Positions 8,267-61,853 of a DNA stretch of 64,000 nucleotides are shown piece by piece (within the stretch, counting starts at the first letter, position 1; each line of letters begins with the position of its first letter). Source of the stretch: an uncultured Candidatus Binatia bacterium. GTDB taxonomy: Bacteria; Desulfobacterota; Binatia; Bin18. The DNA lies in NCBI GenBank assembly GCA_965232605.1, contig CBDDQA010000006.1:510548-574547 (forward strand). Direction: 5' to 3'. The position numbers and the translations under genes were made by a program. The notes beneath the pieces were generated by a model that saw only the letters and a program-made list of their open reading frames with translations, searched no databases and was not told the DNA's origin.

Positions 8267-8476
8267 ATGAAATCTATCCGTTGGACTCTCCACGCGCTCC
8301 AGAATTTAACCGCTCGCGAGATTGACCAAGAGGAAGTCAACCAGGCATTGGATCAGCCTACCGCTATCGCACCGGGCCAGATACCTCGTTCGATTTATAT
8401 GCGTCGTTACTTCGACAAAGTATTACAACAGGATATGTTGCTTCGTGTCGTTGTTGAGGAAACAATAGGAGAGTAA
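8267..8476 (+). CDS. DUF4258-family protein (putative toxin); likely C-terminally frameshifted
   Basis: IRWTLHALQNLTAREIDQEEV...LLRVVVEE matches the DUF4258 pattern. The +1 frame continues as ESKVVVSVYKT, which matches the family C-terminus. Confidence 0.45.
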   Translation: MKSIRWTLHALQNLTAREIDQEEVNQALDQPTAIAPGQIPRSIYMRRYFDKVLQQDMLLRVVVEETIGE

Positions 8477-9037: not shown

Positions 9038-9150
9038 CCAAGCAGGGATCCAGGCCCCCCGCCCTCTCCGGCCTCTGGAGGCCGGATCACGTCCGGCATG
9101 ACGGAAGTTCCCGTTATGGCCAGAGTCGTGCAAGAGGCGCTCCACCTCTA
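9038..9150. repeat. ~110-bp interspersed repeat element, copy 1 (MITE/REP-like or small RNA)
   Basis: About 75% identical to 45622..45735, with the shared core gatcacgtccggcatgacg. The CAAG-loop hairpin ctgc-ccaa-gcag is ccggc-gcaa-gccgg in copy 2, a compensatory change. Confidence 0.5.
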
Positions 9151-9558
9151 AAGAAAGGCTCCAGGACCAATCTTAAAAAAATCTCCCAGCTTTTTCGCCT
9201 GTGACCTGCTGATAGCTCGCTTCCCCTTGAGTACCGCTGAGGCTATGTCCTGAGAGCCGAAGAGTTGCCAGATGTCCTGATGGCCGAGACCGTTATCATC
9301 CATGAGAGAGCGTAGCATCTCATGCGGTGGCAGGTCTTTGACCGGATAGTGTTCCTCATCATACTGCTGAATCAGATCACTGAGGAGGTCTACAAGCCGC
9401 TCTTCTTCGGGCGAAAGGCCCTCTTCGTCCCGGTCAACAAGTTCACGGATAATGGCGTTCAGGCGGTCGTACTCGGCCTCTGTCCGAATCTTCACCGGAA
9501 GCGCCTTGGAAAGCAGGCGCGCATACTCTTGTTCGTTAAAAGTCGAGAGCGTGCTCAT
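9148..9558 (-). CDS. higA: HigA-type antitoxin (XRE-family HTH)
   Basis: Lies downstream of and overlaps a RelE/HigB-like toxin gene by 4 bp (toxin-first higBA order). C-terminal HTH region RAISRSQAKKLGDFF. Confidence 0.65.
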   Translation of the reverse strand: MSTLSTFNEQEYARLLSKALPVKIRTEAEYDRLNAIIRELVDRDEEGLSPEEERLVDLLSDLIQQYDEEHYPVKDLPPHEMLRSLMDDNGLGHQDIWQLFGSQDIASAVLKGKRAISRSQAKKLGDFFKIGPGAFL

Positions 9559-9839
9559 TTCCAGTCCCCCTTGTCATAGTCTTGGTGCGTCAGGATATGC
9601 AGAATATAGACTCGTTGCGTTCGGTAGTTGATTCGTGCAATCAGCCGATAGGTATTCCCTGCGATATTAAAGACTGTACGCCGGCCCACGAGATCTGCGT
9701 GTCGAAAGGTACGTCGCGTATCCGCTAAAGTTGCCCAAGTGGCGTGGCGTGTCTTCCGATACCAGTCTTCAAGGGCGGCTGTCGCGTCTGGATGCAATCG
9801 AACGAAGTCTCGAAGCGCCTTACGACTGATGACTTTCAC
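9555..9839 (-). CDS. higB: HigB-type toxin (RelE/ParE superfamily mRNA interferase)
   Basis: 94-aa protein MKVISRKALRDF...TYRLIARINYRTQRVYILHILTHQDYDK, typical of HigB. Confidence 0.65.
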   Translation of the reverse strand: MKVISRKALRDFVRLHPDATAALEDWYRKTRHATWATLADTRRTFRHADLVGRRTVFNIAGNTYRLIARINYRTQRVYILHILTHQDYDKGDWK

Positions 9840-14204: not shown

Positions 14205-15542
14205 TCAGCTTGTGAGTCTCTGCTTCTCCAGATATTTCGCCTCTGACTCCAGCAGCCTCAGTTGTTCATGTCGCGGTTCATACGAATGCTCGTGTGGATT
14301 CTCTGACGCCGTCTGATGGTATTCCCTTTTTGCCCGGCCATACGTCGCGGAAGTACAATACTCAAACAACTCCTTTTTACTATTTCTTTTTCGGATGACT
14401 CTTGAGGAAACATTCTTGAATCCATGTGCAAGAAGAGACTCCTCATATAAGTCGGGCGTGGCTACAGGGACACCATAGAAAGTACTATTGCCTATAATGT
14501 AATGTACTTCAGCGCTAGGTTTCAGCGCGGATTGAATCGATCGGATGTGTTCGTCCATATCATAAAAATATTTCTTCACGTACAGCGAAAGTAGTTCGCT
14601 ATTCTTTTCTCCGGTCCTTTTAATTTTTTCCACAACCGTATCCAAGGAATGCATCGCGCACTCATGGGTAGGCGACCAAGTGGTTAAGCGGCTGGTTGCA
14701 ATTCCCCAGGTGCCTCCAATTGCCTGCCAATCCAGTTCACCCGCCTCTCGCGCCTCGCCCAGAAAACCAAGCCAAAACATATAGGGACGAAGCTCCCGGA
14801 TATAGCTTATACGATTTGGGTAGGGGGGAGAGGTAACAATGGCATCGAATTGTGACTCCTCATGAAAGGGAGAAGCGCTATTGTGCAAGTGAACGACCCC
14901 TTTTCCCGATAAAGGCGCTATCGCACTGGCAATGAAGGCTTCTGCATAGCTCTCGAAGGCCAGAAGAATTTCCTGCTTCGAGTGAGATACGGTGTCATCC
15001 TGAAAGGAAACCGAAACGTGATTAAACGCTGCGGCGGAATACTCAATAGCCACTCTAGCGAACGCTATCCAGAGTAGAGAAAGAAAGCCAGCATTCTTCG
15101 GTTCGTCGATTATTTTGACGAGCGAAGCGCGAAGTTGGGCAAGTATTATGAGCGTATCCCTACTCCACCATCTTTCGATGTTCTTGAGGGGCGGAAGCCA
15201 CAAAGATTCATCCTGAGTGTCTGTGGCGCTGAGAACAACCTTCCGTAAGGCGTCTCGAAGGGCCGCTATATCGTCTCCAGACACATTCGCGAGCTTGATG
15301 TTGCCGAACCAGACCAGAAAAGGGTTAATATCAAACAACGTGCTTTTGTAGCCGCGTTCTGCGGCCACAACTCCGGTAGTGGCTGTCCCTGAGAATGGGT
15401 CGAGGATGTTACGGGTGTCTGGCAAATCGTCAATGATCCTGCCAACAAGTTTGACCGAGTAGGCAGGAGTCAGCCGCAGCCATCCGTGCCGCCCCAACGA
15501 GCGATTATATTTGAAGGTGTAGTCCGAGCGCTGAGATATCAT
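14205..15542 (-). CDS. DNA methyltransferase (motif I LDPFSGTATTG, motif IV TSPPYPN; N4C/N6A amino-methyltransferase)
   Basis: Methyltransferase motifs present. GC about 48%. Overlaps the upstream gene by ATGA. Confidence 0.75.
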   Translation of the reverse strand: MISQRSDYTFKYNRSLGRHGWLRLTPAYSVKLVGRIIDDLPDTRNILDPFSGTATTGVVAAERGYKSTLFDINPFLVWFGNIKLANVSGDDIAALRDALRKVVLSATDTQDESLWLPPLKNIERWWSRDTLIILAQLRASLVKIIDEPKNAGFLSLLWIAFARVAIEYSAAAFNHVSVSFQDDTVSHSKQEILLAFESYAEAFIASAIAPLSGKGVVHLHNSASPFHEESQFDAIVTSPPYPNRISYIRELRPYMFWLGFLGEAREAGELDWQAIGGTWGIATSRLTTWSPTHECAMHSLDTVVEKIKRTGEKNSELLSLYVKKYFYDMDEHIRSIQSALKPSAEVHYIIGNSTFYGVPVATPDLYEESLLAHGFKNVSSRVIRKRNSKKELFEYCTSATYGRAKREYHQTASENPHEHSYEPRHEQLRLLESEAKYLEKQRLTS

Positions 15543-16333
15543 TCCGGTCGTAGTAAAGTTTCTAAAATACCTTCAATTTCTGTCCGAATTACCTGCCCGT
15601 TCGCTTCGAAAAAACCCGCAAGATCATAACCAACGACCTCATCCATAAAATCGTACAGTGATGTAAAAGGTCCGGAATCTCGGACACCTGTCAAAATACC
15701 GCATCGGTTATTGCGATAGCGTAACACAATGTCGGAATCAATTTGACTCGAGAAGACCGCAAATACTGGAAGATAGCCGTGCGACCACGCTACGGTGGCG
15801 TTATCAATATCAGCGTTCTGTCTCTTCGAATCTTTGCTCTTGTAGCCCTGACGTATCTCAAATACCGCCCCACGACGAGGAACCTCTGGTATGTCAAGCT
15901 GCCTGCAGTAGTCTACCAGCCACTTTCGAGTTCTCTCTCGAACATCTCTTCTGGCAATGTCCTCTAGTCCCAAACGACCGTCAAGGGACAATTTCTTTGA
16001 CTCGCCCGACCGAGTTTTTGTGGAGTAAGACCACGTCAATGATGCTCGGTCCACATATCCCGCAGCGTCGAACAGGACTTCACGGAAAAGCCGCTCACAG
16101 TCAATTCCAATTTGTCGATAGACGGATGTCATTCCTCCAGCGGCTTTGTGGGCTGCGTACATCAAGTCAGAATCCAGCCCTATCCATGAATAAAAGGGAT
16201 CGCTTCCATATAAATTTTTGAAGTCGATAAGTACCAAGCCCTGTTTTCGTGCCGAGGAGCCGAATTTCGGGGTGTAATATGCACACTTACGGATCGGCTC
16301 AAGGAAAATTCCAAGATAATCGATTTCAGACAT
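15539..16333 (-). CDS. putative Type II restriction endonuclease (cognate of the 14205..15542 methyltransferase)
   Basis: Low-GC ORF translationally coupled upstream of the methyltransferase. No homology is assignable from sequence alone; AVFEIRQGYK is a possible ExK motif. Confidence 0.45.
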   Translation of the reverse strand: MSEIDYLGIFLEPIRKCAYYTPKFGSSARKQGLVLIDFKNLYGSDPFYSWIGLDSDLMYAAHKAAGGMTSVYRQIGIDCERLFREVLFDAAGYVDRASLTWSYSTKTRSGESKKLSLDGRLGLEDIARRDVRERTRKWLVDYCRQLDIPEVPRRGAVFEIRQGYKSKDSKRQNADIDNATVAWSHGYLPVFAVFSSQIDSDIVLRYRNNRCGILTGVRDSGPFTSLYDFMDEVVGYDLAGFFEANGQVIRTEIEGILETLLRPE

Positions 16334-40149: not shown

Positions 40150-40197
40150 AGCGTTCTGGCCCTTCGGTCGTGGTTCAGTTTGCATTTTTCCTCCACC

Positions 40198-40326
40198 CCC
40201 GCCCCTTCGACTTCGCTCCGCTACGCTCAGGGTGAGCGGAAACGCTGCCGTTCGTCCTGAGCGTAGCCCCGCAGGGGCGAAGTCGAAGGGCGCTCAGGAC
40301 GGGCCGCGCCCACTCAGGGCGAGCGA
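40198..40326. repeat. complex imperfect palindrome with CTCAGG-containing direct repeats (two-segment ~30-bp arms around a 24-nt centre)
   Basis: ccccttcgacttcgc...gctacgctcagg // cctgagcgtagc...gcgaagtcgaagggc. CTCAGG or its complement occurs 4 times. Confidence 0.5.
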
Positions 40327-40473
40327 GGGACACTGGCTTTGAAACTGAACCACTACCGCCCTTTCCAGTTTGATGCAGGAAACATAATACTGGAATAGGA
40401 TGACCCGTACAGCCCTCTTTCTTGCGAGACCATCCGTCTTTGGAGAGAAATTTCGAGTAGACAAGAGGTTACA

Positions 40474-42192
40474 ATGCAAATCTTTCCGACAGGATCAGAA
40501 ATTGAGCGCGCGGCCAACTTACTGGTGAAAAAGTACGATGTTACCGCACAACTCCTGGGAAAGCTCTTCGGTGCTAAGCAACGTGACAATGCGAATAGCA
40601 TTTTGAAATCGCTCGGAAGCGAGCGATTAACGACTTTAGCTGTTGCCCGTCTTCTCGTTCGGCGGGAGGGGCCAGAATTGTTTACAGGAAGCCGAGAAGA
40701 TACTCGCGAACTCCGGCTCCATCTGCTCAGACAACTCGCTGATGAGAAAGTGAAAAAGCTATTCCAGCGGCATATGAGCGATAGTAATGTTTCTTCTCCG
40801 TCACATATGCGTCGGCCATTAGCAAGGAGAAAGTGGTCCGCGGGCAAGCATTGGGCTAGGGATTTCGTAAAGGAGCTTGGGTTCCCACCCATTTTCGCGG
40901 GTATCGCATCGCCCCCCAAGGTTCCAACCATCCAGGATGTGCCCCCGTTAGAAGTCCCTCCTGAACTGGCCGAATTCCAAAAGGGTTTGAAGACAAAGAT
41001 GCTGGATGTCCTGGGACAAAACGGCGACAAAACTCGTTGTGTGGTTACTCTGCCCACTGGTGGGGGAAAGACACGCGTTGCTGTCGAGGCATTCATCGAC
41101 TGGATGCAGCCTCGCTTTGCGGAAGGAAAATACCTCATATGGATAGCGCAAAGTGAGGAACTTTGTGAGCAAGCTATCGCTTGTATTGAGTCGATGTGGG
41201 GTTCGCGACAGTTTGTTGGGCCTCTGCGCATATATCGATTTTTCGGCGGCCGCGACGTTCCAGAGGAAGATCTACGCGGTGGAGCCGTTGTGGCGAGCAT
41301 TCAACAACTTCACAGCCGGATCAAGTCGGGCGACAAATCGTTCGAGACAATTCTTTCCAATACCGGAGCAATGATTATCGATGAGGCCCACCGTGCTGTT
41401 TCACAGATGTACAACGGATTGTTGGACGCTGCTGAAAAGACATGCGGAAGCGATCTGTTTCCAATCTGCGGCCTCACCGCTACGCCAGGACGCCCTGACC
41501 AAGAGACAGACAAGCTCGTAGGCCGATTTGAAGCATACCTGATTAAGCCAGACCTCGGCGCGGAATATGAGAAGTCCCCGCTACGATATTTTCGTGAGCA
41601 TCAGTTTCTTGCTCGGGCATACCATAAATTGTACGGCTCCGGTCCCGAATACACGCTTACGGATGATGAAGCCGAGAAGGTCAAGAGAGAGAAAGATTTA
41701 CCGGCTGAATTTTTGAAACGTCTCGCCGCTGACAGACGGAGAAACCTTCTGGTCATACGTCGTCTTCTGGATTTACCCAAGGGAACTTCCACCCTTGTGT
41801 ATGCCTGCACCGTAGAACACGCCTATTTCCTATCAGCCCTCCTGTCAGCCCAAGGACGAAGCTCAGGAGCCGTCTCCTCGGATACCCCTATCACCCTGCG
41901 ACGTGCGCTAATCCATGATTTCAAAGAGCAAAAAATCGAGTTTCTCTGCAATTATGGAGTCTTGACCACTGGATTCGATGCGCCAAAGGTCAGATGTATC
42001 GCGCTCTGTCGGCCGACGACGAGTGAAGTTCTTTATGAGCAGATTATAGGCCGTGGACTTCGGGGACCTAAATTTGGTGGGACCCCAGAATGCACCATCA
42101 TCGACTTCGCTGATAACATCCTCCGACTCGGTCCTCCCCTTGCTTACAGACGGTTCGAGGACTTTTGGAGTGACCAAACTACTGAGCAATAA
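40474..42192 (+). CDS. SF2 DEAH-box helicase (COG1061/Type III Res-like core) with uncharacterised ~170-aa N-terminal domain
   Basis: Motif I TLPTGGGKT, motif II IIDEAH, motif III LTATP and motif VI QIIGRGLRG. GC is about 50% in a ~64% background. Confidence 0.75.
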   Translation: MQIFPTGSEIERAANLLVKKYDVTAQLLGKLFGAKQRDNANSILKSLGSERLTTLAVARLLVRREGPELFTGSREDTRELRLHLLRQLADEKVKKLFQRHMSDSNVSSPSHMRRPLARRKWSAGKHWARDFVKELGFPPIFAGIASPPKVPTIQDVPPLEVPPELAEFQKGLKTKMLDVLGQNGDKTRCVVTLPTGGGKTRVAVEAFIDWMQPRFAEGKYLIWIAQSEELCEQAIACIESMWGSRQFVGPLRIYRFFGGRDVPEEDLRGGAVVASIQQLHSRIKSGDKSFETILSNTGAMIIDEAHRAVSQMYNGLLDAAEKTCGSDLFPICGLTATPGRPDQETDKLVGRFEAYLIKPDLGAEYEKSPLRYFREHQFLARAYHKLYGSGPEYTLTDDEAEKVKREKDLPAEFLKRLAADRRRNLLVIRRLLDLPKGTSTLVYACTVEHAYFLSALLSAQGRSSGAVSSDTPITLRRALIHDFKEQKIEFLCNYGVLTTGFDAPKVRCIALCRPTTSEVLYEQIIGRGLRGPKFGGTPECTIIDFADNILRLGPPLAYRRFEDFWSDQTTEQ

Positions 42193-42206: not shown

Positions 42207-42947
42207 ATGATCAAACTCAGCGTCAACGTCAATAAAATCGCCACCCTGCGCAACGCTCGGGGCGGCGACCAGCCGAATGTCGTCCGGGCCGCCCAGACCT
42301 GCATCGATGCCGGCTGTCACGGCATCACCGTGCATCCCCGCCCGGACGGTCGCCATATTCGCTATCAGGACGTGAGAGACCTGGCCGCCCTGCTCGCAGA
42401 CCACAGCAGTATTGAATTCAATATCGAGGGCTATCCTTCGACCGAGTTTCTGGATTTGGTCTGCCAGGTGCGACCGACCCAGTGCACCCTGGTGCCCGAC
42501 CCGCCAGACGTACTGACCTCAAACACGGGCTGGGACCTCAGCGGCGATGTCACCCGGCTCGGCCAAGTCTTACAGCGTTTACACGACAAGGGCATACGGA
42601 CCAGTCTTTTTCTCGATCCGGATAACGAACAAGTGGGACGAGCAAAAGAGGTCGGCGCGGACCGGATTGAACTCTACACGGAACGCTATGCCCGTCTCTT
42701 CGGCAGTGCCGAGCAAGACCAGGTTTATGCCGCGTATCACGCCGCAGCCCAAACAGCACAGGAAGCCGGCCTGGGGCTGAATGCGGGCCACGATCTTAAC
42801 CTGGAGAACCTGCCCTACTTTGCCGAGCGTGTACCCGGTCTGCTCGAAGTGTCCATCGGCCACGCCCTGATTTGCGACGCGCTCTACATGGGGCTGGTCG
42901 CAAGCGTGAAAGCCTATCTGCGCGCGCTCAAGCCCCAACAAGATTGA
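42207..42947 (+). CDS. pdxJ: pyridoxine 5'-phosphate synthase
   Basis: MIKLSVNVNKIATLRNARGG...HPRPD...GHDLN, a PdxJ hallmark. Confidence 0.85.
   Translation: MIKLSVNVNKIATLRNARGGDQPNVVRAAQTCIDAGCHGITVHPRPDGRHIRYQDVRDLAALLADHSSIEFNIEGYPSTEFLDLVCQVRPTQCTLVPDPPDVLTSNTGWDLSGDVTRLGQVLQRLHDKGIRTSLFLDPDNEQVGRAKEVGADRIELYTERYARLFGSAEQDQVYAAYHAAAQTAQEAGLGLNAGHDLNLENLPYFAERVPGLLEVSIGHALICDALYMGLVASVKAYLRALKPQQD
42869..42930 (+). repeat. direct repeat copy 1 (3' end of pdxJ); ~90% identical to 44420..44482
   Basis: ctgatttgcgacgcgctctacatgg...gaaagcctatctgc is present at both sites. Copy 2 still encodes LICDALYMELAASAKAYLHAL. Confidence 0.65.
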
Positions 42948-42978
42948 CGTGCCTTGAGGACGGCAATACATTGCCTGC

Positions 42979-43263
42979 ATGGCTACACAAACCATCAAAT
43001 CGACGTATTCGCTGGATATCGAATCCGTAAACATATTGGAGGCATTGGCACAACGCTGGAACGTGTCGAAGTCCGAAGTGCTCCGGCGTGCTATTCGGAG
43101 AGTAGCGATGGAGTGGGAGCCAGAGAGTAGTACGGCGCTCAGCGCTCTTGACCAATTGCAGGCTTCTCTCCGTAAGCGCAAGGTCAATACCACACAGTGG
43201 GCACGGACTCTCAATGCTGAGCGCCAAGCGGCTGCTCCACGGCTATCTTCCAAGTCTCAATGA
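42979..43263 (+). CDS. vapB: ribbon-helix-helix antitoxin (VapB/CopG-like)
   Basis: 94 aa immediately upstream of a PIN gene, overlapping it by ATGA. Contains VSKSEVLRRAIRR. Confidence 0.6.
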   Translation: MATQTIKSTYSLDIESVNILEALAQRWNVSKSEVLRRAIRRVAMEWEPESSTALSALDQLQASLRKRKVNTTQWARTLNAERQAAAPRLSSKSQ

Positions 43264-43631
43264 TACACTTGGATACGAGCTTTCTGATCCAAGCCCTGAA
43301 ACCGGGAGCCCCTGAAGATCGCAAACTGCGAATCTGGATTGAAGAAGGCGAAACACTGGTAATGAGTACAGTCGCCTGGGCAGAGTTCCTGTGCGGCCCA
43401 CTTGACCGCTCCGAGATGGAATTGGCCACTGAAATCATCGGCCAGCGTCGAGATTTCACGCCGAAGCACGCTACGATTGCCGCCGGTTTATTTAATGAGT
43501 CGGGCAGGCGGCGTGGCTCGTTGATTGACTGCATGATTGCAGCAACGGCGCTCGCCGATGGCGCGCCCGTCGCGACTGCGAATGTGGCGGACTTTCGTCG
43601 ATTTGAGGATTCCGGCCTGACTATAGCATGA
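43260..43631 (+). CDS. vapC: PIN-domain toxin VapC
   Basis: MIHLDTSFLI...ATANVADFRRF carries the PIN acidic residues. Confidence 0.75.
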   Translation: MIHLDTSFLIQALKPGAPEDRKLRIWIEEGETLVMSTVAWAEFLCGPLDRSEMELATEIIGQRRDFTPKHATIAAGLFNESGRRRGSLIDCMIAATALADGAPVATANVADFRRFEDSGLTIA

Positions 43632-43803
43632 GGGAATTTACTCAACGCTAGTGAGAGCCTACCTGAACGCTCTCAGGTATGAGGCGTAAATCAGCGCGAG
43701 GACAGACCACCCGGCACCGATACGAAGAAACCGCCGTCAGTCGCTTGACACGCCATACCTGATATGAATGCACATAAAAATACACATTAAGAGGTGTAAA
43801 GAA

Positions 43804-44007
43804 ATGCGAACCAATATCGAGCTTGATGCCGAACTTGTTCGGGAGGCGCAGGAATTGAGCCGGATAAAGACCAAGAGGGAACTGATCCACCAGGCGCTGA
43901 AAGAATTCGTCAACCATCGGAAGTGCCTTGATCTGCGGAAACTTGAGGGTTCGAACCTCCTCGACCCGGAGTATGACCACAAGAAACTGCGTGCCGCTGG
44001 GGCCTGA
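43804..44007 (+). CDS. vapB: VapB-type antitoxin (MRTNIELDxELV family)
   Basis: MRTNIELDAELVREAQELS is typical of VapB antitoxins. Lies upstream of a PIN gene. Confidence 0.6.
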   Translation: MRTNIELDAELVREAQELSRIKTKRELIHQALKEFVNHRKCLDLRKLEGSNLLDPEYDHKKLRAAGA

Positions 44008-44013
44008 AACTGC

Positions 44014-44424
44014 ATGTACTTGGTCGATACCTCCGTGTGGGTCGATTACATCCGGGGCCGAGATTGCCAGCACGTCGACTTCCTGCGAGACCTGCTGTCG
44101 AATCCTACCGCCGTCTGGATTACGCACCTGATCTATATGGAGATTCTCCAGGGCGCACGCGACACGGCATCTTTTGATCGACTGCGAAGCTACTTCAGCG
44201 GACAACAATTTTATTCATTCAGCGACATGACCGCAGGTCACACCTCTGCCGCTCGCATCTACCTGGATTGCCGCCAACGCGGTGTCACCGTGCGCTCGAC
44301 TGCGGACTGTTTGATTGCGGCGTGCGCCATACAGTCCAAGACGACCCGGCTGCACCACGACAGAGACTTCGAGCGAATCGCCCTCGTCTTCCCGGCGCTG
44401 AAAGAAAAGAGCTTCCTCGGCTGA
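44014..44424 (+). CDS. vapC: PIN-domain toxin VapC
   Basis: MYLVDTSVWVDYIRG...DCLIAACAI...HDRDFERI. Confidence 0.75.
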   Translation: MYLVDTSVWVDYIRGRDCQHVDFLRDLLSNPTAVWITHLIYMEILQGARDTASFDRLRSYFSGQQFYSFSDMTAGHTSAARIYLDCRQRGVTVRSTADCLIAACAIQSKTTRLHHDRDFERIALVFPALKEKSFLG

Positions 44425-44482
44425 TTTGCGACGCGCTCTACATGGAGCTGGCAGCAAGCGCGAAAGCCTATCTGCACGCTCT
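44420..44482 (+). repeat. direct repeat copy 2 (displaced relic of the pdxJ 3' end)
   Basis: See copy 1 at 42869..42930. Confidence 0.65.
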
Positions 44483-44533
44483 TGGGTATACAGCGTCATA
44501 ATGTGATACAAGGCGATGTAAGGAGGACCCGCC

Positions 44534-45541
44534 ATGCCAGAGCATAAGATTTTTTCGTTAGGGGATTTTCCGCTCGAATGTGGGCTCATTCTGCGCAAGG
44601 CCCAGCTCGCCTATCAGGTCTATGGCGAACTCAACAGCCGCAAGGACAACGCTATCCTGCTGTGCTCGTGGTATTCCGGCGATCACACCGGCTATGAGTT
44701 CTTGATCCGGGAAGGCAAGTGTTTCGACCCAACCAAATACTGTGTGATTGGCGTCAATATGTTCACCAACGGGCTGTCTTCTTCTCCCAACACGACGTCC
44801 ATTCCCATGAATGGCCCGCACTTTCCGGCAACGACCATCCGCGACAATATCCGGGCGCAGCACGCCCTTGTTCAGAGCCTGGGCATTGAGTCGCTCGCCC
44901 TGGTCTCCGGCTACTCAATGGGCGCGCAGCAGTGCTTTCAGTGGGCGGTCAGTTATCCGGATATGGTCGAGCGGATTGCGCCGTGGTGCGGGGCGGCGCG
45001 GACCACCCCGCATACCCATGTCTTTATTGAAGGCTTTACTTCCGCGCTCCGTGCGGACGCGGCCTGGAACCACGGCCATTACGCCCAACCGCCGGCCACG
45101 GGCGTGCGCGCCATGGCCCGGGTGTATGCCGGCTGGGGCCTGTCGCAGGCCTGGTATCGTGAAGAGCTGTACAAGCAGCTCGGCCATCCGAGCGTCGAGG
45201 ATTTCCTGGTCTATTTTTGGGAGAACTTTTTTCTCCAGTGTGACGCCAATAATCTGCTGGCCCAGGCAAAGACGTGGCAGGATCATAATGTCGGAGACTC
45301 GCCGGGATTTGACGGAGACTGGCGCAAAGCGCTGGCCACGGTGTCTGCCAAGGCCATGATTATGCCGGGCCAGACCGATCTCTACTTTCCGCCGGAAGAC
45401 AGCCAGGCAGAGACAGACTGCCTGCCGAACGCCGTGTATCGACCAATCCCGTCGATTTGGGGACATTTGGCGGGAATTGGCATGAATCCAGAGGATAACG
45501 ATTTTATTGACGCAGCGATTCAGGAGTGTTTGGCGTCGTAG
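44534..45541 (+). CDS. homoserine O-acetyltransferase family protein (MetX-like alpha/beta hydrolase)
   Basis: GYSMGAQQ nucleophile elbow. MetX-like N-terminal region. AAGGAGGA ribosome-binding site. Confidence 0.6.
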   Translation: MPEHKIFSLGDFPLECGLILRKAQLAYQVYGELNSRKDNAILLCSWYSGDHTGYEFLIREGKCFDPTKYCVIGVNMFTNGLSSSPNTTSIPMNGPHFPATTIRDNIRAQHALVQSLGIESLALVSGYSMGAQQCFQWAVSYPDMVERIAPWCGAARTTPHTHVFIEGFTSALRADAAWNHGHYAQPPATGVRAMARVYAGWGLSQAWYREELYKQLGHPSVEDFLVYFWENFFLQCDANNLLAQAKTWQDHNVGDSPGFDGDWRKALATVSAKAMIMPGQTDLYFPPEDSQAETDCLPNAVYRPIPSIWGHLAGIGMNPEDNDFIDAAIQECLAS

Positions 45542-45621
45542 GACGGAGCGCGCTAGAGCACTTTGCGATGTTATGTAGGAAGGAGCCTCGGAACCTCCAC
45601 TAGCAACGTCATTCCGGCGCA

Positions 45622-45735
45622 AGCCGGAATCCAGGTTCCCGGCCCTTTCGCCTTCTGGATGCCTGATCACGTCCGGCATGACGAGAGTCCTCTGTACGGC
45701 TAGAGACTACCGTGAGATGCGCCAGGAAGAATCTG
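45622..45735. repeat. ~110-bp interspersed repeat element, copy 2
   Basis: Aligns with 9038..9150. Ends 2 bp before a DUF2283 gene. Confidence 0.5.
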
Positions 45736-45736
45736 T

Positions 45737-45973
45737 ATGCAACTTACTTACGACCCACGTCACAATATTGCCTACCTCCGATTGCAAGAGAAAATCGATC
45801 AAGTCGAAACCATCCGGGTCAGCGAGGAACTCCACATAGACCTCGCTCCGGACGGCACCGTTTACGGTATCGAGTTACTCAACGCTAACCAGCAGTTACA
45901 CGCCGAGGACCAGGGGAAACTGATCGTTATCAACGAGGCCGCTGGAGACCGCCGGGAAATCGACCTCGTCTGA
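45737..45973 (+). CDS. DUF2283-family protein (orphan, no DUF4258 partner)
   Basis: MQLTYDPRHNIAYLRL...GTVYGIELL fits the DUF2283 consensus. Confidence 0.55.
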   Translation: MQLTYDPRHNIAYLRLQEKIDQVETIRVSEELHIDLAPDGTVYGIELLNANQQLHAEDQGKLIVINEAAGDRREIDLV

Positions 45974-50062: not shown

Positions 50063-50169
50063 ATTCCCCTCCTTCAGTCGTGTACTCTCTATCTATTGTC
50101 CTTTGAATACAGGTTTTCTCCGCTCCCGCAACGCTTGATAGTAAACGACGGGTTTTGGATAGTACCCTT

Positions 50170-50586
50170 CTATGGATTCTCCGCAACTCTCTCCGGCTCT
50201 TCTCCTGGCGGGTAGACGTAAATAGCGACAGCTTTTCCTTCCCTATCTGGTAAAACTCCAAGAGACTTTGCTGCAATTTTAGCTTCAACGCTCGGTTCAA
50301 CGAGCGCCTCAAGAATCACCCCATTCGCTCCTATCTCAGCAGCCTTCCTCCGCATGGACTCATACATTTGCGACTCGTCTGTGTTTTCCGAGTCCCCTTT
50401 TGAGTGTAGAAGCGCTATTTCTTCGTATCTACCAGGCACTTGCTCCGCTGTCCGATAGAACTTAACTATAGACTCATTCGTACTGGTACGGCGAACCGTT
50501 GCCGTACCCAACATAGTGGCGTTGGTCGTGACACAACCAACGGCAAATACTAACATTACACACAGAAATACTCGTAGTGCTCCCAT
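50170..50586 (-). CDS. hypothetical lipoprotein (signal peptide plus LVFAVGC lipobox), low GC
   Basis: MGALRVFLCVMLVFAVGC. GC about 45%. Confidence 0.4.
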   Translation of the reverse strand: MGALRVFLCVMLVFAVGCVTTNATMLGTATVRRTSTNESIVKFYRTAEQVPGRYEEIALLHSKGDSENTDESQMYESMRRKAAEIGANGVILEALVEPSVEAKIAAKSLGVLPDREGKAVAIYVYPPGEEPERVAENP

Positions 50587-50693
50587 ACCTTCTTCCTTCT
50601 TTACTCTCTTACACCTCCATAGCGTGGTAAGAACGGGGCGGCTCACCAGCCACCCCTCCTATTGTCTCGACCCGGTATCGGGCAGAGACGGTC

Positions 50694-52145
50694 TTATTCC
50701 TTGCCAATTCGCGCCATCCTGCTGGCGTAGTCGCGCACCCGCTGCCAGTCGTACTCGCGATAGAGCTGCATCTTTTCGGCTTCCATGGAGCCCTCGGCGT
50801 GCAAAGCCAGCACTGCGTTATACCCGCCAAAGTCCGAGGTGGTGATGTCCTGAATCAGGTTAATCACCTGGAGCCGTTCCTTGCCCGAGGTGCCCTTCTT
50901 GCCTTTCAGGTATTTCTCGACCAGCGGTCCGGTCTCCTCGCTGCGCAGATCTTCCACCGCCGGAGCGGTCACCAGAATACCACCGGCCAAGTCCTGGACG
51001 TGCGACAGGGCTTGGTGAAAATCGGCCGCAAAATGATGCTTGGCGATATTCACGGTCGGAGGGTCGGGGATAACCATGTCGAAGTCGGTCTCGCGTGCCT
51101 TCAGACACGCCATATGGGTCAGCGAGCGGGTGGTTTCGGCATAGCTGGCCAGCCAGAACAGTTTTTCCTTGACATGGGCGGCTCTTTCAATGCCGTTGTA
51201 TTCGGCCATCAGACGCCCGGCACCGGCCAAGAGATCAAGGAAAGGTAATTTATAGGAGATCGCGGTCAGACGATGATACTCAACAAATGACAAAGCCAAA
51301 GGGCCGGCAAACTGCCATTCGCCCTGCAAGAAAATCCGCTCGTTGGGCACGAACACGTCATCAAAGATGGTCAGCGTTTCGGTCATTTTCACGCCCGAGC
51401 TGACCGGATGATCGAAGCTGTTGCGCTGGGTATACGAGCCGTAGCCGCTCATCAACAGCTTGAGCCCCGGCGTATCCAGCGGAATGGCAAAGGAGACCGC
51501 ATAGTCCTTGTCCTCTGCCCCCATGGCCCGGGTGGGCAGGACGATCATCTCGTTGGCGTGGGTGGTGTTTGAAGTGTGGACCTTGGCCCCCCGCACCACA
51601 ATGCCGTCGTCCCGCTCTTCCACAATGCGCAGATACAAATCCGGGTCTTCCTGTTCCGAGGGACGCAAGGCGCGGTCGCCCTTGGTGTCGGTCTGGGCCA
51701 GGGCAAAGCTGACGTCTTCTGTGCAGCAGTAATCATAAAAGGCTTTGACCCGTTGATAGTAGGCGGTTCCGCAGGCTTCATCTATTTTCCGGGAGGTCCG
51801 CAACAGGCCAAACAGCGCATCACTGCCGACCACTTTCGCCAGTACGACCAGCGTTCCGCCTTCCCGGCAGGCGGTCTCGATCAACTCACTTCGTTTGAGC
51901 AGTTGTTCCGTGTTCTGCGGCGGCAGAAAATAGCGGCTCATCTCTTCGCCGGTCTCGGGGTTACGGACCACGGCCAGCTCCCGATACTGCGGGTCGTGCA
52001 TGAGCCGATAGTCGGTTGCCTCATGATCGATGGCGGTTTGAACGAGCGGATGCCCGGTCACATCAGGGATGCGCTGGCCTCGAAAATAGACCTGCCGGTC
52101 GTCCTTCAGGCTGTCTTTGTATTGCTCAACCGTGCGTAGCGGCAT
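50694..52145 (-). CDS. HpaB/AbfD family flavoprotein (4-hydroxyphenylacetate 3-hydroxylase / 4-hydroxybutyryl-CoA dehydratase-like)
   Basis: 483 aa with family-like N-terminus MPLRTVEQYKDSLKDDRQVYFRGQRI. Confidence 0.55.
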   Translation of the reverse strand: MPLRTVEQYKDSLKDDRQVYFRGQRIPDVTGHPLVQTAIDHEATDYRLMHDPQYRELAVVRNPETGEEMSRYFLPPQNTEQLLKRSELIETACREGGTLVVLAKVVGSDALFGLLRTSRKIDEACGTAYYQRVKAFYDYCCTEDVSFALAQTDTKGDRALRPSEQEDPDLYLRIVEERDDGIVVRGAKVHTSNTTHANEMIVLPTRAMGAEDKDYAVSFAIPLDTPGLKLLMSGYGSYTQRNSFDHPVSSGVKMTETLTIFDDVFVPNERIFLQGEWQFAGPLALSFVEYHRLTAISYKLPFLDLLAGAGRLMAEYNGIERAAHVKEKLFWLASYAETTRSLTHMACLKARETDFDMVIPDPPTVNIAKHHFAADFHQALSHVQDLAGGILVTAPAVEDLRSEETGPLVEKYLKGKKGTSGKERLQVINLIQDITTSDFGGYNAVLALHAEGSMEAEKMQLYREYDWQRVRDYASRMARIGKE

Positions 52146-57733: not shown

Positions 57734-57787
57734 AAAGAGTAAACGTGTCCTCCAATACACAGGAGATGCCGGACACGTTTACTCTTT
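57734..57787 (+). promoter_or_regulatory. conserved 16-bp-stem hairpin element, copy A (aagagtaaacgtgtcc / 20-nt loop / ggacacgtttactctt)
   Basis: Perfect inverted repeat starting 2 nt after the Rieske gene stop and ending 8 nt before the Leu-DH start. A near-identical copy lies at 61801..61853. Confidence 0.55.
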
Positions 57788-60253: not shown

Positions 60254-61801
60254 ATGTCTTTCGCACCCCACACCGCGGACCTGTTGCTCTACGGTGGACA
60301 TGTTCTCAGCTGTGACCCAGACCGGCCTGAAGCCCAGGCCGTTGCTATTGCGGCAGGAAAAATCCTCGCGGTCGGCACCGAGCAGGAACTACGCGCCTGT
60401 GTCTCTCCGAAAACACAGACCCTATCGTGTGCCGGGAAAACGATACTGCCGGGCTTTATCGACCCTCACTTGCATCTCTTTGCCTGGGCGAGTCGCTCCT
60501 GCGGCGCAGACCTGGGTACAGCCCGGTCAATTGCTGAAATCCAGTCTCAACTCCAGGCACGCCTGGACGCTCTCGGCTCGCAAGACTGGCTGCGCGGCTA
60601 TGGCTATGATGAGTTTTTTCTCGACGAGAAACGCCATCCGAATCGACACGACCTCGATGCCATCTCGACCGACCAGCCCATCATCCTGCGTCATCGGACC
60701 GGCCATGCTGCCGTTCTGAATAGCGCCGCGCTCCGGCAAACCGGTATCCATGCCCGGTTTATCCCGCCAAAGGGTGGCAACATCGAACACGACGCAAGCG
60801 GAGAGCCAACGGGCGTGGTCTACGAGCTAGAGTCGTTTCTGCGGACTGCCCTGCCTCCGCTTCCGGCGCGGGAGTTTCAGGCCGGATTGCGACAGGTCAA
60901 CGGCGAACTGCTCAGACACGGAGTCTGTTCGTTTCACGACGCCAGTGCCGGCAATACGCCTGAGGCGCTCGGACGCTTCGCCGCCTTCCGAGCCAACGGC
61001 GTCATACGTCCCCATGCAACCGTGATGGTCGGGGTTGGAGCGTTCTCGCAGGTACAAGAGGCCGGCCTCACCGCCTTTGACCGGTCCGGCCAGGTTCGGC
61101 TGGGCAGTATTAAAATCATGCTGCACGAAAGCGGAGGCGAACTGTATCCGCCGCTGGACGACCTGGCGGAAATGGTCTGGCAGGTGCATCGCCACGGGTT
61201 TCAGGTCGCCATCCACGCCGTTGAAGAAGCTCCTGTCTGCGCGGCCCTCGAAGCGATTCAACGGGCACTGGAGCGACTGCCTCGCCACGATCATCGGCAT
61301 CGAATCGAACACTGCACGCTGTGTCCCCCGCCGTTTCTTGACACCCTGGCCGAGACAGGCTGTGCAGTGGTGGTGCAGCCGGGCTTTCTGCATTTTTATG
61401 GCGACAAATATGCCGCACAAGTTGATACGGATGTACACGCTTGGCTGTACCGGGCCAAAAGCTTTCGGGAGCGCAACATTCCCGTTGTCGGCAGCTCAGA
61501 TTGTCCGATTGCCCCACAGGCCCCATTGGTCGCGATTCAGGCTGCCGTTACCCGCCAGTCCCACACCGGAATGACCCTCAATCCCGCCGAACGCTTGTCG
61601 TGTCTTGAGGCGGTTGGTCTGTTCACCCAAGCCGCAGCCTGGGTCGGGTTTGAGGAAGACCGGACCGGCAGCATCGCCCCCGGCATGCGTGCGGATGTGG
61701 TTATCCTCGACAGCGACCTGACGAGGCTCCCGGCTGAAGCCCTCAGCCGGGTCAACGTCCAGACAACAATCATTGACGGTGAGATTGTCTATTCGGCATA
61801 A
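60254..61801 (+). CDS. amidohydrolase family protein (amidohydrolase-3-like)
   Basis: FIDPHLHL metal-binding motif. Large metal-dependent hydrolase architecture. Confidence 0.7.
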   Translation: MSFAPHTADLLLYGGHVLSCDPDRPEAQAVAIAAGKILAVGTEQELRACVSPKTQTLSCAGKTILPGFIDPHLHLFAWASRSCGADLGTARSIAEIQSQLQARLDALGSQDWLRGYGYDEFFLDEKRHPNRHDLDAISTDQPIILRHRTGHAAVLNSAALRQTGIHARFIPPKGGNIEHDASGEPTGVVYELESFLRTALPPLPAREFQAGLRQVNGELLRHGVCSFHDASAGNTPEALGRFAAFRANGVIRPHATVMVGVGAFSQVQEAGLTAFDRSGQVRLGSIKIMLHESGGELYPPLDDLAEMVWQVHRHGFQVAIHAVEEAPVCAALEAIQRALERLPRHDHRHRIEHCTLCPPPFLDTLAETGCAVVVQPGFLHFYGDKYAAQVDTDVHAWLYRAKSFRERNIPVVGSSDCPIAPQAPLVAIQAAVTRQSHTGMTLNPAERLSCLEAVGLFTQAAAWVGFEEDRTGSIAPGMRADVVILDSDLTRLPAEALSRVNVQTTIIDGEIVYSA

Positions 61802-61853
61802 GGAGTAAACGTGTCCTCCAATACCGCATGAGATGCTGGACACGTTTACTCTT
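61801..61853 (+). promoter_or_regulatory. conserved 16-bp-stem hairpin element, copy B
   Basis: aggagtaaacgtgtcc / 21-nt loop / ggacacgtttactctt. Begins at the stop codon of the amidohydrolase and ends 12 nt before the enoyl-CoA hydratase start. Confidence 0.55.

What the first reader, a model, noticed from the sequence alone, without database searches (positions are those of the whole stretch)
42869..44485. 1.5-kb double vapBC cassette integrated into the 3' end of pdxJ, with duplicated target
The last ~62 bp of pdxJ (42869..42930) recur at 44420..44482 with ~6 mismatches, and the second copy still encodes LICDALYMELAASAKAYLHAL. Between the two copies lie only two vapBC pairs (RHH-type VapB plus PIN, and MRTNIELD-type VapB plus PIN). 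This is the classic signature of site-specific integration that regenerates the target gene's 3' end. No integrase remains, so this is a minimal toxin-antitoxin-only islet, possibly a decayed or mobilisable element.
Basis: seen in the sequence. Interest (0 to 1): 0.6.

Follow-up and report, generated by a model that had tools for sequence, protein, structure and literature searches.

The report
Stacked toxin-antitoxin insertions behind pdxJ
Two separate toxin-antitoxin gene pairs were inserted one after the other behind the vitamin-B6 gene pdxJ of an uncultured Binatia bacterium, each leaving a decaying copy of the gene's tail, and the junctions look like scars of sloppy one-sided recombination at a gene-swapping hotspot, not the work of a dedicated integrase.

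Summary
The repeat is real. 42867-42928 and 44421-44482 match at 56 of 62 nt, far beyond chance. The distal copy runs on to a stop codon (81 nt, to 44501) and into the native pdxJ/MetX-like spacer. Deleting 42867-44420 in silico restores a gap-free match to the empty site of relative L012.

These are therefore two independent modules, not one double cassette. Relatives carry either module alone, or both in the opposite order, and each keeps its own tail remnant on its right.

In about 20 Binatia genomes this interval is a variable hotspot. It holds other PIN pairs, MntA/HepT, a SIR2/short-pAgo pair, type III restriction-modification genes and nucleases. None holds a recombinase.

The junctions argue against an att site:
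- vapC2's natural stop joins pdxJ at a 4-nt microhomology (CTGA).
- The 39-nt copy joins the middle of a truncated antitoxin gene at GAAA.CC.
- There is no attC-like folding.
- The modules are as diverged as the flanking core genes.

Best reading: homology-anchored illegitimate insertion, later reshuffled by recombination between tail copies and eroded by deletions. This makes it a new example of a known kind, of moderate interest.

The parts
42207..42947 (+). pdxJ (pyridoxine 5'-phosphate synthase), 246 aa. This is the conserved left anchor of the hotspot. Its last codons (KPQQD*) were created by a 37-bp deletion near 42929-42935.
   Evidence: Pfam PdxJ E=3.8e-88; NCBIfam equivalog NF003626, 353.9 bits against a cut-off of 222; alignment with 10 relatives shows the deletion, which is shared with L002.
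42867..42928 (+). Proximal copy of the repeat: the functional pdxJ tail, still inside the gene.
   Evidence: the repeat finder D1/D2; nhmmer tail profile 42850-42929, E=1.2e-24.
42944..42972 (+). Promoter-like site of the vapBC1 module (TTGACG-17-TACATT). The pdxJ stop TGA at 42945-42947 lies inside the -35 hexamer.
   Evidence: Consensus scan. One site was found against 0.7 expected, so the scan alone is weak. The sequence is conserved at this position in all 11 vapBC1-bearing loci.
42979..43263 (+). vapB1, a ribbon-helix-helix antitoxin of 94 aa. Its stop overlaps the vapC1 start (ATGA).
   Evidence: Pfam RHH_1 E=2.8e-4, 21.2 bits against a cut-off of 20.5; 86-95% identical orthologues in 10 relatives.
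43260..43631 (+). vapC1, a PIN-domain toxin of 123 aa.
   Evidence: Pfam PIN E=1.7e-13. NCBIfam VapC gives E=1.9e-8 but only 34.5 bits, below the cut-off of 80. No solved homologue was found by sequence.
43637..43650 (+). Last trace (tttactcaacgcta) of a fourth, truncated VapB-like antitoxin gene (vapB4). Relatives L011 and L014 keep about 75 nt more of it (TTLSIDDDLPIAVKEIAQRESK).
   Evidence: Alignment of post-vapC1 regions; intact vapB4 at L002:6837-7088.
43651..43689 (+). Middle remnant M: the last 39 nt of pdxJ including the stop (VRAYLNALRYEA*). It is joined to the vapB4 fragment at a GAAA.CC microhomology.
   Evidence: nhmmer E=3.6e-5; the same junction occurs in L001, L003, L010, L011 and L014; junction anatomy.
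43690..43727 (+). A segment of about 38 nt that follows a pdxJ stop in many relatives (consensus ATCAGCGGTGrGACAGACCGACCGACACCGCTrCCAG, with inverted repeat CAGCGGTG/CACCGCTG). It is degenerate in the window. It precedes both vapBC2 and vapBC3 modules. It may be an old pdxJ 3' flank or terminator.
   Evidence: Alignment of 8 copies; its function was not tested.
43804..44007 (+). vapB2, a VapB-type antitoxin of 67 aa (MRTNIELD...).
   Evidence: Pfam VapB_antitoxin E=4.5e-16.
44014..44424 (+). vapC2, a PIN-domain toxin of 136 aa and full natural length. Its stop TGA (44422-44424) lies inside the first bases of the distal pdxJ remnant.
   Evidence: Pfam PIN E=1.6e-14; NCBIfam VapC equivalog 137.7 bits against 80; matches M. 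tuberculosis VapC11 (6a7v) at E=8e-16, with D5, E43, D98 and D116 aligned to identical residues; 624 homologues, nearly all 136 aa and ending ...EKSFLG.
44421..44501 (+). Distal remnant B: the displaced native last 81 nt of pdxJ including the stop (LICDALYMELAASAKAYLHALGYTAS*). It is out of frame with vapC2 and is not expected to be translated.
   Evidence: E=1.2e-22. The same vapC2|CTGATTTGC junction occurs in L007, L008 and L011. The L007 copy carries an indel, as expected for a pseudogene fragment.
44502..44533 (+). Native pdxJ/MetX-like intergenic spacer with a ribosome-binding site (AAGGAGG).
   Evidence: Collinear with the empty site of L012 and with L007.
44534..45541 (+). MetX-like alpha/beta hydrolase (NF005757 family), 335 aa. 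This is the conserved right border of the hotspot.
   Evidence: Pfam Abhydrolase_1; NCBIfam NF005757, 462.7 bits against 332; MetX equivalog 160.9 bits against 500, so not met; 93-98% identical in 15 relatives.

Best explanation
The pdxJ/MetX-like interval of this Binatia lineage is an integrase-less hotspot for toxin-antitoxin and defence genes. The window carries two independently acquired VapBC modules stacked behind pdxJ. Each module is a promoter, an antitoxin gene and a PIN RNase toxin gene. By family knowledge, the antitoxin neutralises the toxin and represses the operon. The module can act as an addiction or abortive-infection device.

Shown by anatomy: vapBC2 arrived first, giving an L007-like state. 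Its right end is joined, exactly at the natural vapC2 stop codon, to position -80 of the resident pdxJ through the 4-nt microhomology CTGA. The resident last 81 nt of pdxJ and the native spacer were therefore pushed downstream as a dead remnant. A second block (vapBC1 plus a vapB4 gene now truncated) was then placed between pdxJ and vapBC2. Its right end joins pdxJ position -39 at a GAAA.CC microhomology inside vapB4, leaving the 39-nt remnant.

Inferred: each founding event was a double crossover of incoming DNA. The left crossover was homologous, within pdxJ, which served as the anchor. The right crossover was illegitimate, at a microhomology. This is the pattern of homology-facilitated illegitimate recombination (HFIR). 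Once made, a module plus its right-hand tail copy is flanked by pdxJ homology on both sides. Ordinary homologous recombination can then move it into any related genome, whatever lies downstream. This explains why the identical junctions occur in front of different neighbours and in both orders. Small deletions then eroded the array: 37 bp at the pdxJ stop, about 75 bp after vapC1, and truncated vapC genes in relatives.
For: - **Empty sites and intermediates.** L012, L018, L019 and L091 have 32-78 bp between pdxJ and the MetX-like gene. L007 has vapBC2 only. L004, L009, L013, L014 and L015 have vapBC1 without vapBC2. L008 and L011 have the order vapBC2 then vapBC1.
- **Virtual excision.** Removing 42867-44420 gives gap-free 88.7% identity over 521 nt to L012.
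- **Each module keeps its own remnant.** vapBC2 is followed by 77-81 nt of tail, and vapBC1 by 38-39 nt, in every genome.
- **vapC2 junction.** vapC2 is full length; the family is 136 aa and ends ...EKSFLG. At another chromosomal site (L161) it ends ...CTCGGCTGA followed by its own terminator hairpin and no target duplication. In the hotspot that terminator is replaced by pdxJ sequence starting at the shared CTGA.
- **M junction.** It truncates vapB4 in mid-gene at GAAA.CC.
- **Same junction, different right-hand neighbours.** The vapC2|tail junction is followed by the native spacer in the window and L007, but by vapBC1 in L008 and L011. The vapB4|tail junction is followed by vapBC2 in the window, but by vapBC3 in L001, L003, L010, L011 and L014. 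This requires later crossovers inside the short tail copies.
- **No recombinase.** None was found in the hotspot of any relative or among 30 scanned window ORFs.
- **Other cargo leaves no tail copy.** MntA/HepT, a PD-(D/E)XK nuclease, the SIR2-APAZ/short pAgo pair and type III RM genes sit in the hotspot without a tail duplication.
- **No attC-like folding.** Inter-module DNA gives z-scores of -0.9 to +0.7.
- **Old residents.** Modules are as diverged between genomes (90-97% nt) as pdxJ (86-94%) and the MetX-like gene (89-95%).
- **Second islet with a microhomology junction.** The helicase islet upstream of pdxJ also ends at a microhomology (GAGCAA) with no duplication.
- **Published precedent.** HFIR-type sequential displacement next to a conserved anchor has been proposed for T6SS effector-immunity arrays and Rhs/CDI orphan arrays (PMC5361080). 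Integrase-less core defence hotspots have been described (PMC10250203).
Against: - No recombination was observed. The mechanism is inferred from scars that are old (about 10% diverged).
- Microhomologies of 4-7 nt are short, and only two junctions are available.
- The 39-nt remnant could be a secondary deletion of a once longer remnant. If so, the argument that the two crossover positions differ is weaker than it looks.
- A recombinase acting in trans from elsewhere in the genome cannot be excluded with one 64-kb window and 12-17-kb loci.
- DNA uptake or competence in Binatia is unknown.
- HFIR is experimentally rare (PMC5361080).
- Three different downstream sequences all diverge right at the pdxJ stop codon. 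That is also what a fixed site would give, although selection on the coding sequence explains it equally well.
Confidence: 0.6

Rival explanations
1. Site-specific integration. Small integrative or cis-mobilisable elements, whose integrase is lost or acts in trans, recombined with an att site in the pdxJ 3' end and accreted in tandem. Each carried a replacement pdxJ tail.
For: Direct repeats of the target gene's 3' end flank the insert, and empty sites exist. The tandem array, with the newest module next to pdxJ and modules found in either order, is what repeated integration at one attB would give. All remnants share the segment from -39 to the stop, which could hold a core. vapBC2 and vapBC3 modules begin with the same segment of about 38 nt, which contains an inverted repeat.
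Against: No integrase, transposase or other recombinase was found in about 20 hotspots or among 30 scanned window ORFs. The remnants start at different pdxJ positions. One junction is a gene's own stop codon, with no room for an attP arm. The other truncates an antitoxin gene. Most cargo has no att-like duplication. The vapBC2 homologue at another site has no flanking repeats. There are no relatives in IMG/VR viral contigs. Module divergence equals that of the core genes.
Confidence: 0.17
2. Campbell-type single crossover. A circular molecule (a plasmid, or a circle excised from another genome) carrying a pdxJ tail segment plus a vapBC module integrated by RecA-dependent recombination with the chromosomal pdxJ tail. 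This duplicates the homologous segment on both sides of the module.
For: It predicts exactly a module flanked by direct copies of the homologous segment, a module-specific repeat length, and arrays in any order. It needs no dedicated recombinase.
Against: It still requires an earlier illegitimate event to have fused the module to a pdxJ fragment at the CTGA and GAAA.CC junctions. It is therefore a way of spreading, not of origin. Segments of 39-81 nt at about 90% identity are poor substrates. No plasmid or viral copy was found.
Confidence: 0.15
3. Integron-like cassette array, in which the pdxJ tail copies act as attC/attI-type sites for an IntI-like enzyme.
For: TA cassettes are typical of chromosomal integrons. 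The cassettes are co-oriented, and the newest lies next to the anchor.
Against: There is no intI next to the array; the upstream neighbours are a helicase and an M20 peptidase. The inter-cassette DNA has no attC-like hairpin (z-scores -0.9 to +0.7). Each cassette carries its own promoter-like region. Most cassette boundaries lack any repeat.
Confidence: 0.03
4. Local tandem duplication of the pdxJ tail (by slippage or microhomology-mediated duplication), followed by unrelated insertions between the copies. Alternatively, an assembly artefact.
For: Microhomology-bounded duplications are common in bacteria (general knowledge).
Against: The left edge of each remnant abuts foreign DNA (the vapC2 stop, or the interior of vapB4), not pdxJ sequence. 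The same junctions recur in several independently assembled, mostly complete MAG chromosomes. This rules out an artefact.
Confidence: 0.03

Closest known systems
Homology-facilitated illegitimate recombination (HFIR) and the displacement arrays attributed to it: T6SS effector-immunity arrays in Vibrio cholerae and Rhs/CDI orphan toxin-immunity strings (PMC5361080, and its references to de Vries & Wackernagel 2002, Prudhomme et al. 2002, Meier & Wackernagel 2003)
   Same: A conserved gene segment serves as a one-sided homology anchor. New modules enter next to the anchor and push older ones downstream. Orphaned 3' fragments of the anchor gene are left between modules. No integrase is involved. 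The illegitimate joints lie at short microhomologies.
   Different: The anchor here is the 3' end of a housekeeping gene (pdxJ), not the constant part of a polymorphic toxin gene. The cargo is type II toxin-antitoxin and defence genes. The process is inferred from old scars in uncultured bacteria. The leftover tail copies appear to have been reused later as homology arms.
Integrase-less core defence hotspots (P. aeruginosa cDHS, PMC10250203; E. coli defence-island hotspots, from my own knowledge of Hochhauser et al. 2023)
   Same: A variable interval between two conserved core genes holds different TA, restriction and Argonaute-type systems in different genomes. It has lower G+C and no mobile-element genes.
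   Different: This hotspot is much smaller (0-4.6 kb). It lies in an uncultured phylum. It preserves junction scars that hint at how cargo entered, which the cited work left open.
Integrative elements that target the 3' end of a protein gene and supply a replacement end (phage 21 and e14 in icd; ICESt1 and CIMEs in fda; from my own knowledge)
   Same: A partial copy of the target gene's 3' end is displaced downstream. Tandem accretion of elements without their own integrase (CIMEs) is known.
   Different: Those elements have a tyrosine integrase, at least in a partner element, and a constant att core. Here no recombinase was found, the repeat edges differ, and the junctions fall on a stop codon and inside a truncated gene.
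VapBC type II toxin-antitoxin systems (e.g. M. tuberculosis VapBC11 and VapBC15, PDB 6a7v and 4chg)
   Same: An antitoxin gene is followed immediately by a PIN-domain toxin gene. VapC2 matches VapC11 at E=8e-16 with the four acidic residues conserved.
   Different: Activity, RNA target and regulation are untested. VapC1 is a more distant PIN protein with no solved relative detectable by sequence.
Chromosomal integron cassette arrays
   Same: Small co-oriented cassettes, often TA pairs, with the newest next to a fixed insertion point.
   Different: There is no IntI, no attC structure and no common promoter. The repeats are fragments of a housekeeping gene.

Membership tests
VapBC type II toxin-antitoxin module (both pairs) | The toxin has a PIN domain with conserved acidic catalytic residues. 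| tested here: met
   Pfam PIN E=1.7e-13 (VapC1) and 1.6e-14 (VapC2). VapC2 passes the NCBIfam VapC equivalog cut-off (137.7 bits against 80) and aligns to VapC11 with D5, E43, D98 and D116 identical. VapC1 is below that NCBIfam cut-off (34.5 bits). Its acidic residues (D5, E42, D91, D110) were located by eye only.
VapBC type II toxin-antitoxin module (both pairs) | A small DNA-binding antitoxin gene lies immediately upstream, in one operon. | tested here: met
   RHH_1 (E=2.8e-4, just above the cut-off) overlaps vapC1 by 4 nt. VapB_antitoxin PF09957 (E=4.5e-16) ends 6 nt before vapC2.
VapBC type II toxin-antitoxin module (both pairs) | The toxin inhibits growth and is neutralised by the cognate antitoxin. 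| not testable with these tools
   This needs expression assays.
Site-specific integrative element (integrase-mediated island or CIME) | A recombinase gene in the element or in a neighbouring partner element. | tested here: not met
   No Phage_integrase, Recombinase, rve or DDE family was found in the interval in the window or in about 20 related loci, nor among 30 window ORFs. A trans-acting enzyme elsewhere in the genome could not be searched for.
Site-specific integrative element (integrase-mediated island or CIME) | Direct repeats (attL/attR) flank the insert, and relatives have an empty site. | tested here: met
Site-specific integrative element (integrase-mediated island or CIME) | The same att core or crossover position at every junction. 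| tested here: not met
   The remnants begin at -80 (vapBC2) and -39 (vapBC1/vapB4). The junctions fall at a stop codon and inside a truncated gene. Other cargo has no repeat. Caveat: the -39 edge could be a secondary deletion.
Site-specific integrative element (integrase-mediated island or CIME) | Excision to a circular form. | not testable with these tools
   This needs raw reads or an experiment.
Integron | An intI gene next to attI, and attC hairpins between cassettes. | tested here: not met
   The upstream genes are a helicase and an M20 peptidase. Fold z-scores of inter-cassette DNA on both strands are -0.9 to +0.7.
HFIR-type insertion (works-like claim, not a gene family) | Extended homology on one side only, and a joint at a 3-10-nt microhomology on the other. 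| tested here: met
   The left side is pdxJ itself. The right joints are CTGA (vapC2 end / pdxJ -80) and GAAA.CC (vapB4 interior / pdxJ -39), defined by comparison with L161 and L002.
HFIR-type insertion (works-like claim, not a gene family) | DNA uptake followed by RecA-dependent anchoring in the recipient. | not testable with these tools
   The organism is uncultured, and no competence data were examined.
Core (integrase-less) defence/TA hotspot | The same two core genes flank diverse defence cargo in different genomes. | tested here: met
   15 close relatives carry 0.8-4.6 kb of differing cargo. This includes vapBC1/2/3, MntA/HepT, PD-(D/E)XK, SIR2-APAZ plus short pAgo (PADLOC E=1.7e-179 and 1.8e-198), type III RM, and HIRAN and RE_endonuc proteins.

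The most novel reading that the evidence does not exclude
The pdxJ tail, with or without the conserved hairpin-bearing segment of about 38 nt that follows it, may be a genuine attachment site. A chromosomally encoded recombinase acting in trans would use it, making this an integron-like platform that stacks promoter-bearing TA and defence cassettes at the 3' end of a housekeeping gene, with no recombinase gene at the site. A milder novel reading is that the leftover gene-tail copies work as portable homology arms, so that TA modules become self-propagating by ordinary recombination.
Probability: 0.1. Interest if true: 0.75.

Novelty: new member of a known kind. Interest (0 to 1): 0.35.

Why it matters
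How integrase-less defence and TA hotspots between core genes are built is an acknowledged open question (PMC10250203). Most such hotspots leave no scars. Here the displaced pdxJ tails, the microhomology joints, and the re-use of identical junctions in front of different neighbours give a readable step-by-step history. The steps are an anchored illegitimate insertion, then homologous reshuffling, then deletional decay, in a little-studied uncultured phylum (Binatia). The case also warns against reading every duplicated gene 3' end as an integrase footprint. The biology itself, VapBC pairs in a variable islet, is ordinary.

Tried and rejected
- **Integrase search.** Pfam scans of every sizeable ORF in the hotspots of about 20 relatives and of 30 window ORFs, including all low-GC3 ones, found none. 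The rest of the window's ORFs were not scanned.
- **Integron/attC idea.** DNA folds of the three inter-module regions on both strands were no better than shuffles.
- **Phage origin.** vapC1 and vapC2 have no relatives in IMG/VR viral contigs. Plasmid collections were not searched.
- **Xer/dif-like site.** The native junction contains CATAATGT, as in E. coli dif, but the putative XerD arm does not match. This was judged by eye to be chance.
- **Tail phylogeny.** I tested whether the tail on the left of a module co-varies with that module, which would indicate an element-supplied tail. No pattern emerged from the C-terminal variants or from the 62-nt identity matrix. The remnants decay independently and do not cluster.
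- **Metagenome scan with PdxJ.** This added only two close loci, L081 and L082, plus one empty site, L091.
- **Similar scars elsewhere in the window.** I found only a marginal 26-nt repeat (81% identity, E=0.025) around the methylase islet at 3429/5377. It was left unresolved.
- **An 18-nt inverted match.** The end of remnant M (43673-43690) pairs imperfectly with the vapBC2 promoter region (43745-43762) at 78%. This is no better than other chance pairs in the region.


Full report
**Observation.** The window carries one long non-tandem direct repeat. It lies at 42867-42928 (inside the 3' end of pdxJ) and 44421-44482, is 62 nt long with 56 identical positions, and the copies are 1554 bp apart. 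With the window's base composition, the expected number of matches this good among all pairs within 8 kb is about 6e-18. The distal copy continues in the pdxJ frame to a stop at 44499-44501 and reads LICDALYMELAASAKAYLHALGYTAS*.

The genes between the copies are:
- an RHH antitoxin (42979-43263);
- a PIN toxin (43260-43631);
- a PF09957 VapB antitoxin (43804-44007);
- a second PIN toxin (44014-44424).

VapC2 passes the NCBIfam VapC equivalog cut-off and aligns with M. tuberculosis VapC11 with all four acidic residues conserved. The upstream gene is a bona fide pdxJ. The downstream 'metX' is a MetX-like hydrolase of family NF005757 that fails the MetX equivalog threshold.

A profile of the pdxJ tail built from relatives finds a third copy at 43651-43689. 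It is the last 39 nt of pdxJ with its stop codon (VRAYLNALRYEA*), and it sits exactly between the two vapBC pairs (nhmmer E=3.6e-5). The array is therefore: pdxJ | vapBC1 | 39-nt tail | vapBC2 | 81-nt tail | native spacer | MetX-like gene.

**Relatives.** PdxJ retrieves Candidatus Binatia MAGs, many of them complete chromosomes. In 15 close relatives (pdxJ 82-94% identical in protein) the pdxJ/MetX-like interval varies from 32 bp to 4.6 kb.
- L012, and the more distant L018, L019 and L091, are empty.
- L007 has vapBC2 alone.
- L004, L009, L013, L014 and L015 have vapBC1 without vapBC2.
- L008 and L011 have both modules in the opposite order.

Deleting 42867-44420 from the window in silico gives a gap-free alignment to the empty site of L012, at 88.7% identity over 521 nt. 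The 81-nt distal copy runs straight into the same spacer as in L012 and L007. The insert is thus real, and the distal copy is the displaced native end of pdxJ.

Other cargo in the same interval includes:
- a third RHH/PIN pair;
- MntA/HepT;
- a PD-(D/E)XK protein;
- a sulfatase-family membrane protein;
- HIRAN-domain and restriction-endonuclease-domain proteins;
- a type III methylase/helicase pair;
- a SIR2-APAZ plus short-pAgo pair (PADLOC E=1.7e-179 and 1.8e-198).

This is a small TA/defence hotspot between two core genes. G+C is lower there (0.51-0.56 against about 0.60-0.65 in the flanks).

**Junction anatomy.** In every genome vapBC2 is followed by a 77-81-nt tail copy. vapBC1 is followed by a 38-39-nt copy in six of the eleven genomes that carry it.

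*The vapBC2 right junction.* It reads ...TTCCTCGG|CTGATTTGCGAC. The VapC2 family (624 homologues) is almost uniformly 136 aa and ends ...EKSFLG, so the toxin gene is complete. A 79%-identical vapBC2 at a different chromosomal site in another Binatia genome (L161) ends ...CTCGGCTGA. It is followed by its own terminator hairpin and has no flanking duplication. In the hotspot, therefore, everything after the stop codon was replaced by pdxJ sequence, and the joint lies in the 4 nt (CTGA) shared by the vapC2 end and pdxJ codons CTG-ATT.

*The 39-nt copy.* It is joined to a fragment of a fourth antitoxin gene. L011 and L014 retain TTLSIDDDLPIAVKEIAQRESK, and the intact gene is present in L002. Comparing vapB4 (...gagtcGAAAtCCgca), pdxJ (...gcgtGAAAgCCtac) and the product (...gagtcGAAGCCtac) places the joint in an imperfect GAAA.CC microhomology in mid-gene.

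*Deletions in the window.* A further deletion of about 75 bp lies after vapC1. A 37-bp deletion, shared with L002, removed the native pdxJ stop. PdxJ now ends ...KPQQD*, with its TGA inside the TTGACG -35 hexamer of the vapBC1 promoter-like site. The Pfam PdxJ domain (residues 3-240) is untouched.

**Against a dedicated recombinase.**
- No integrase, transposase or resolvase family appears in any hotspot or among 30 scanned window ORFs, including all low-GC3 ones.
- The inter-module DNA does not fold better than shuffled sequence on either strand (z-scores -0.9 to +0.7).
- vapC1 and vapC2 have no relatives in IMG/VR viral contigs.
- Most cargo has no tail duplication at all.
- The two remnants begin at different pdxJ positions.
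- One junction leaves no room for an attP arm, and the other cuts a gene.
- The modules differ between genomes about as much as the flanking core genes do (vapBC 90-97% nt, pdxJ 86-94%, MetX-like gene 89-95%). They are old residents, not a recently mobile element.
- The remnants decay independently. The L007 copy has an indel, and the copies do not cluster.

**Mechanism proposed.** The founding events fit a double crossover of incoming DNA with a homologous left joint inside pdxJ and an illegitimate right joint at a microhomology. This is the pattern known as homology-facilitated illegitimate recombination. It has been invoked for the sequential displacement arrays of T6SS effector-immunity modules and of Rhs/CDI orphans (PMC5361080). 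If the illegitimate joint falls upstream of the end of the anchor, the recipient's own gene tail is retained behind the insert, which is what is seen here.

The identical vapC2|tail junction precedes the native spacer in the window and L007, but precedes vapBC1 in L008 and L011. The identical vapB4|tail junction precedes vapBC2 in the window, but precedes vapBC3 in five relatives. A single event cannot give both arrangements, so later crossovers must have occurred inside the short tail copies. Those copies thus served as right-hand homology arms. The existence of these crossovers follows from the anatomy. Their enzymology (RecA-type recombination of transformed, transduced or conjugated DNA) is inferred.

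A segment of about 38 nt with an inverted repeat follows pdxJ stops and precedes both vapBC2 and vapBC3. It may be an old pdxJ 3' flank or terminator. It is also the one feature that could still hide a recombination site.

**Function.** By family knowledge, each pair is an autoregulated type II TA operon. Its PIN RNase arrests growth when the labile antitoxin is lost. Plausible roles here are stabilising the hotspot and abortive phage defence. Nothing in the data tests this.

**Rivals.** These are weighed in the rival-explanations section. Site-specific integration by a lost or trans-acting integrase (about 0.17) remains possible because only a small part of each genome was seen, and because the -39 edge might be a secondary deletion. 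Campbell-type integration of a circle carrying a pdxJ fragment (about 0.15) would explain spread but not the origin of the junctions. Integron, tandem-duplication and artefact readings are contradicted by the anatomy and by the recurrence of the junctions in independent assemblies.

**Comparison and novelty.** The structure works like the HFIR displacement arrays of polymorphic-toxin loci, and the locus is an instance of the integrase-less core hotspots described in Pseudomonas and E. coli (PMC10250203). It fails two of the three testable defining features of an integrase-borne element, and both of an integron. The VapBC pairs are ordinary family members. I rate it a new member of a known kind. 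Its value is that the scars document how such a hotspot can be filled without a recombinase, in an uncultured phylum. Interest is 0.35. The most novel reading still open is a trans-acting recombinase using the pdxJ tail as a cassette platform (probability about 0.1).

Noticed in passing
window 40474-42192 (+): A low-GC (0.50-0.54) 572-aa ResIII/DEAD helicase lies between the M20 peptidase gene and pdxJ. It has weak PADLOC matches to type IV restriction and PbeA proteins. It is present only in the window, L003 and L012; the other relatives have an 85-bp divergent intergenic region there. Its right junction overlaps the native sequence at a GAGCAA microhomology, with no target duplication. So both sides of pdxJ are variable.
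   Followed up: partly
window ~40186-40355: An extra segment of about 170 nt, rich in nested inverted repeats (e.g. ccttcgacttcgc...gcgaagtcgaagg and cgctacgctcagg...cctgagcgtagc), lies between the M20 peptidase start and the helicase upstream region. It is absent from L003 and L004 and looks like a MITE/REP-type palindromic element.
   Followed up: no
L013:7576-10727 and L015:7575-10726: A SIR2-APAZ protein (578 aa) plus a short class I prokaryotic Argonaute (472 aa) sit in the same pdxJ/MetX-like hotspot of two relatives, directly after vapBC1 (PADLOC E=1.7e-179 and 1.8e-198).
   Followed up: partly
L002:6741-12738: The relative that shares the window's 37-bp pdxJ-tail deletion has only 13 codons of vapB1 left. 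These are followed by an intact VapB-like gene (vapB4), a type III methylase, an MntA/HepT pair and a Res helicase. No MetX-like gene lies within 6 kb.
   Followed up: partly
L161:2791-3411 and L018:12408-12719: A 79-82% identical vapBC2 sits at a different site in other Binatia genomes, next to a Vgb-lyase-like gene. The corresponding place in the window (about 50100-50700) holds a low-GC3 158-aa ORF with no Pfam match, which suggests a second small hotspot.
   Followed up: partly
window 3566-5214, 8252-8476, 9148-9839, 14205-16333, 45737-45973: Several other low-GC3 islets are present. They are an N6/N4 methylase plus a 147-aa ORF, a DUF4258 ORF, a HigB toxin with an upstream 136-aa partner, a second methylase plus a 264-aa ORF, and a DUF2283 ORF after the MetX-like gene that is present in only some relatives.
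   Followed up: partly
window 3429-3454 and 5377-5402: A 26-nt direct repeat (81% identical, E=0.025 in a pairwise search) brackets the methylase islet. The second copy lies in codons 47-60 of the ABC-F ATPase gene (LTGQLEPDAGRVQR against LYAQLEPDSGRVVR). It may be a decayed gene-end remnant of the same kind as at pdxJ, or it may be chance.
   Followed up: partly
window 57734-57786 and 61800-61853: A repeated unit of about 53 nt containing the palindrome AAGAGTAAACGTGTCC...GGACACGTTTACTCTT sits at the start of two genes 4 kb apart: a Glu/Leu/Phe/Val-dehydrogenase-like gene and a 250-aa ORF. It looks like a shared operator.
   Followed up: no
window 2676-2825: Seven or more tandem 15-nt units (GCCAAGAAAGCCCCG) would encode AKKAP repeats on the + strand, like a lysine/alanine-rich histone-H1-like tail.
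   Followed up: no
window 45563-45700: The intergenic sequence gtcattccggcgcaagccggaatccagg... resembles a short interspersed repeat type that is often mis-called as an ORF (...IPAQAGIQ...). Its copy number was not checked.
   Followed up: no
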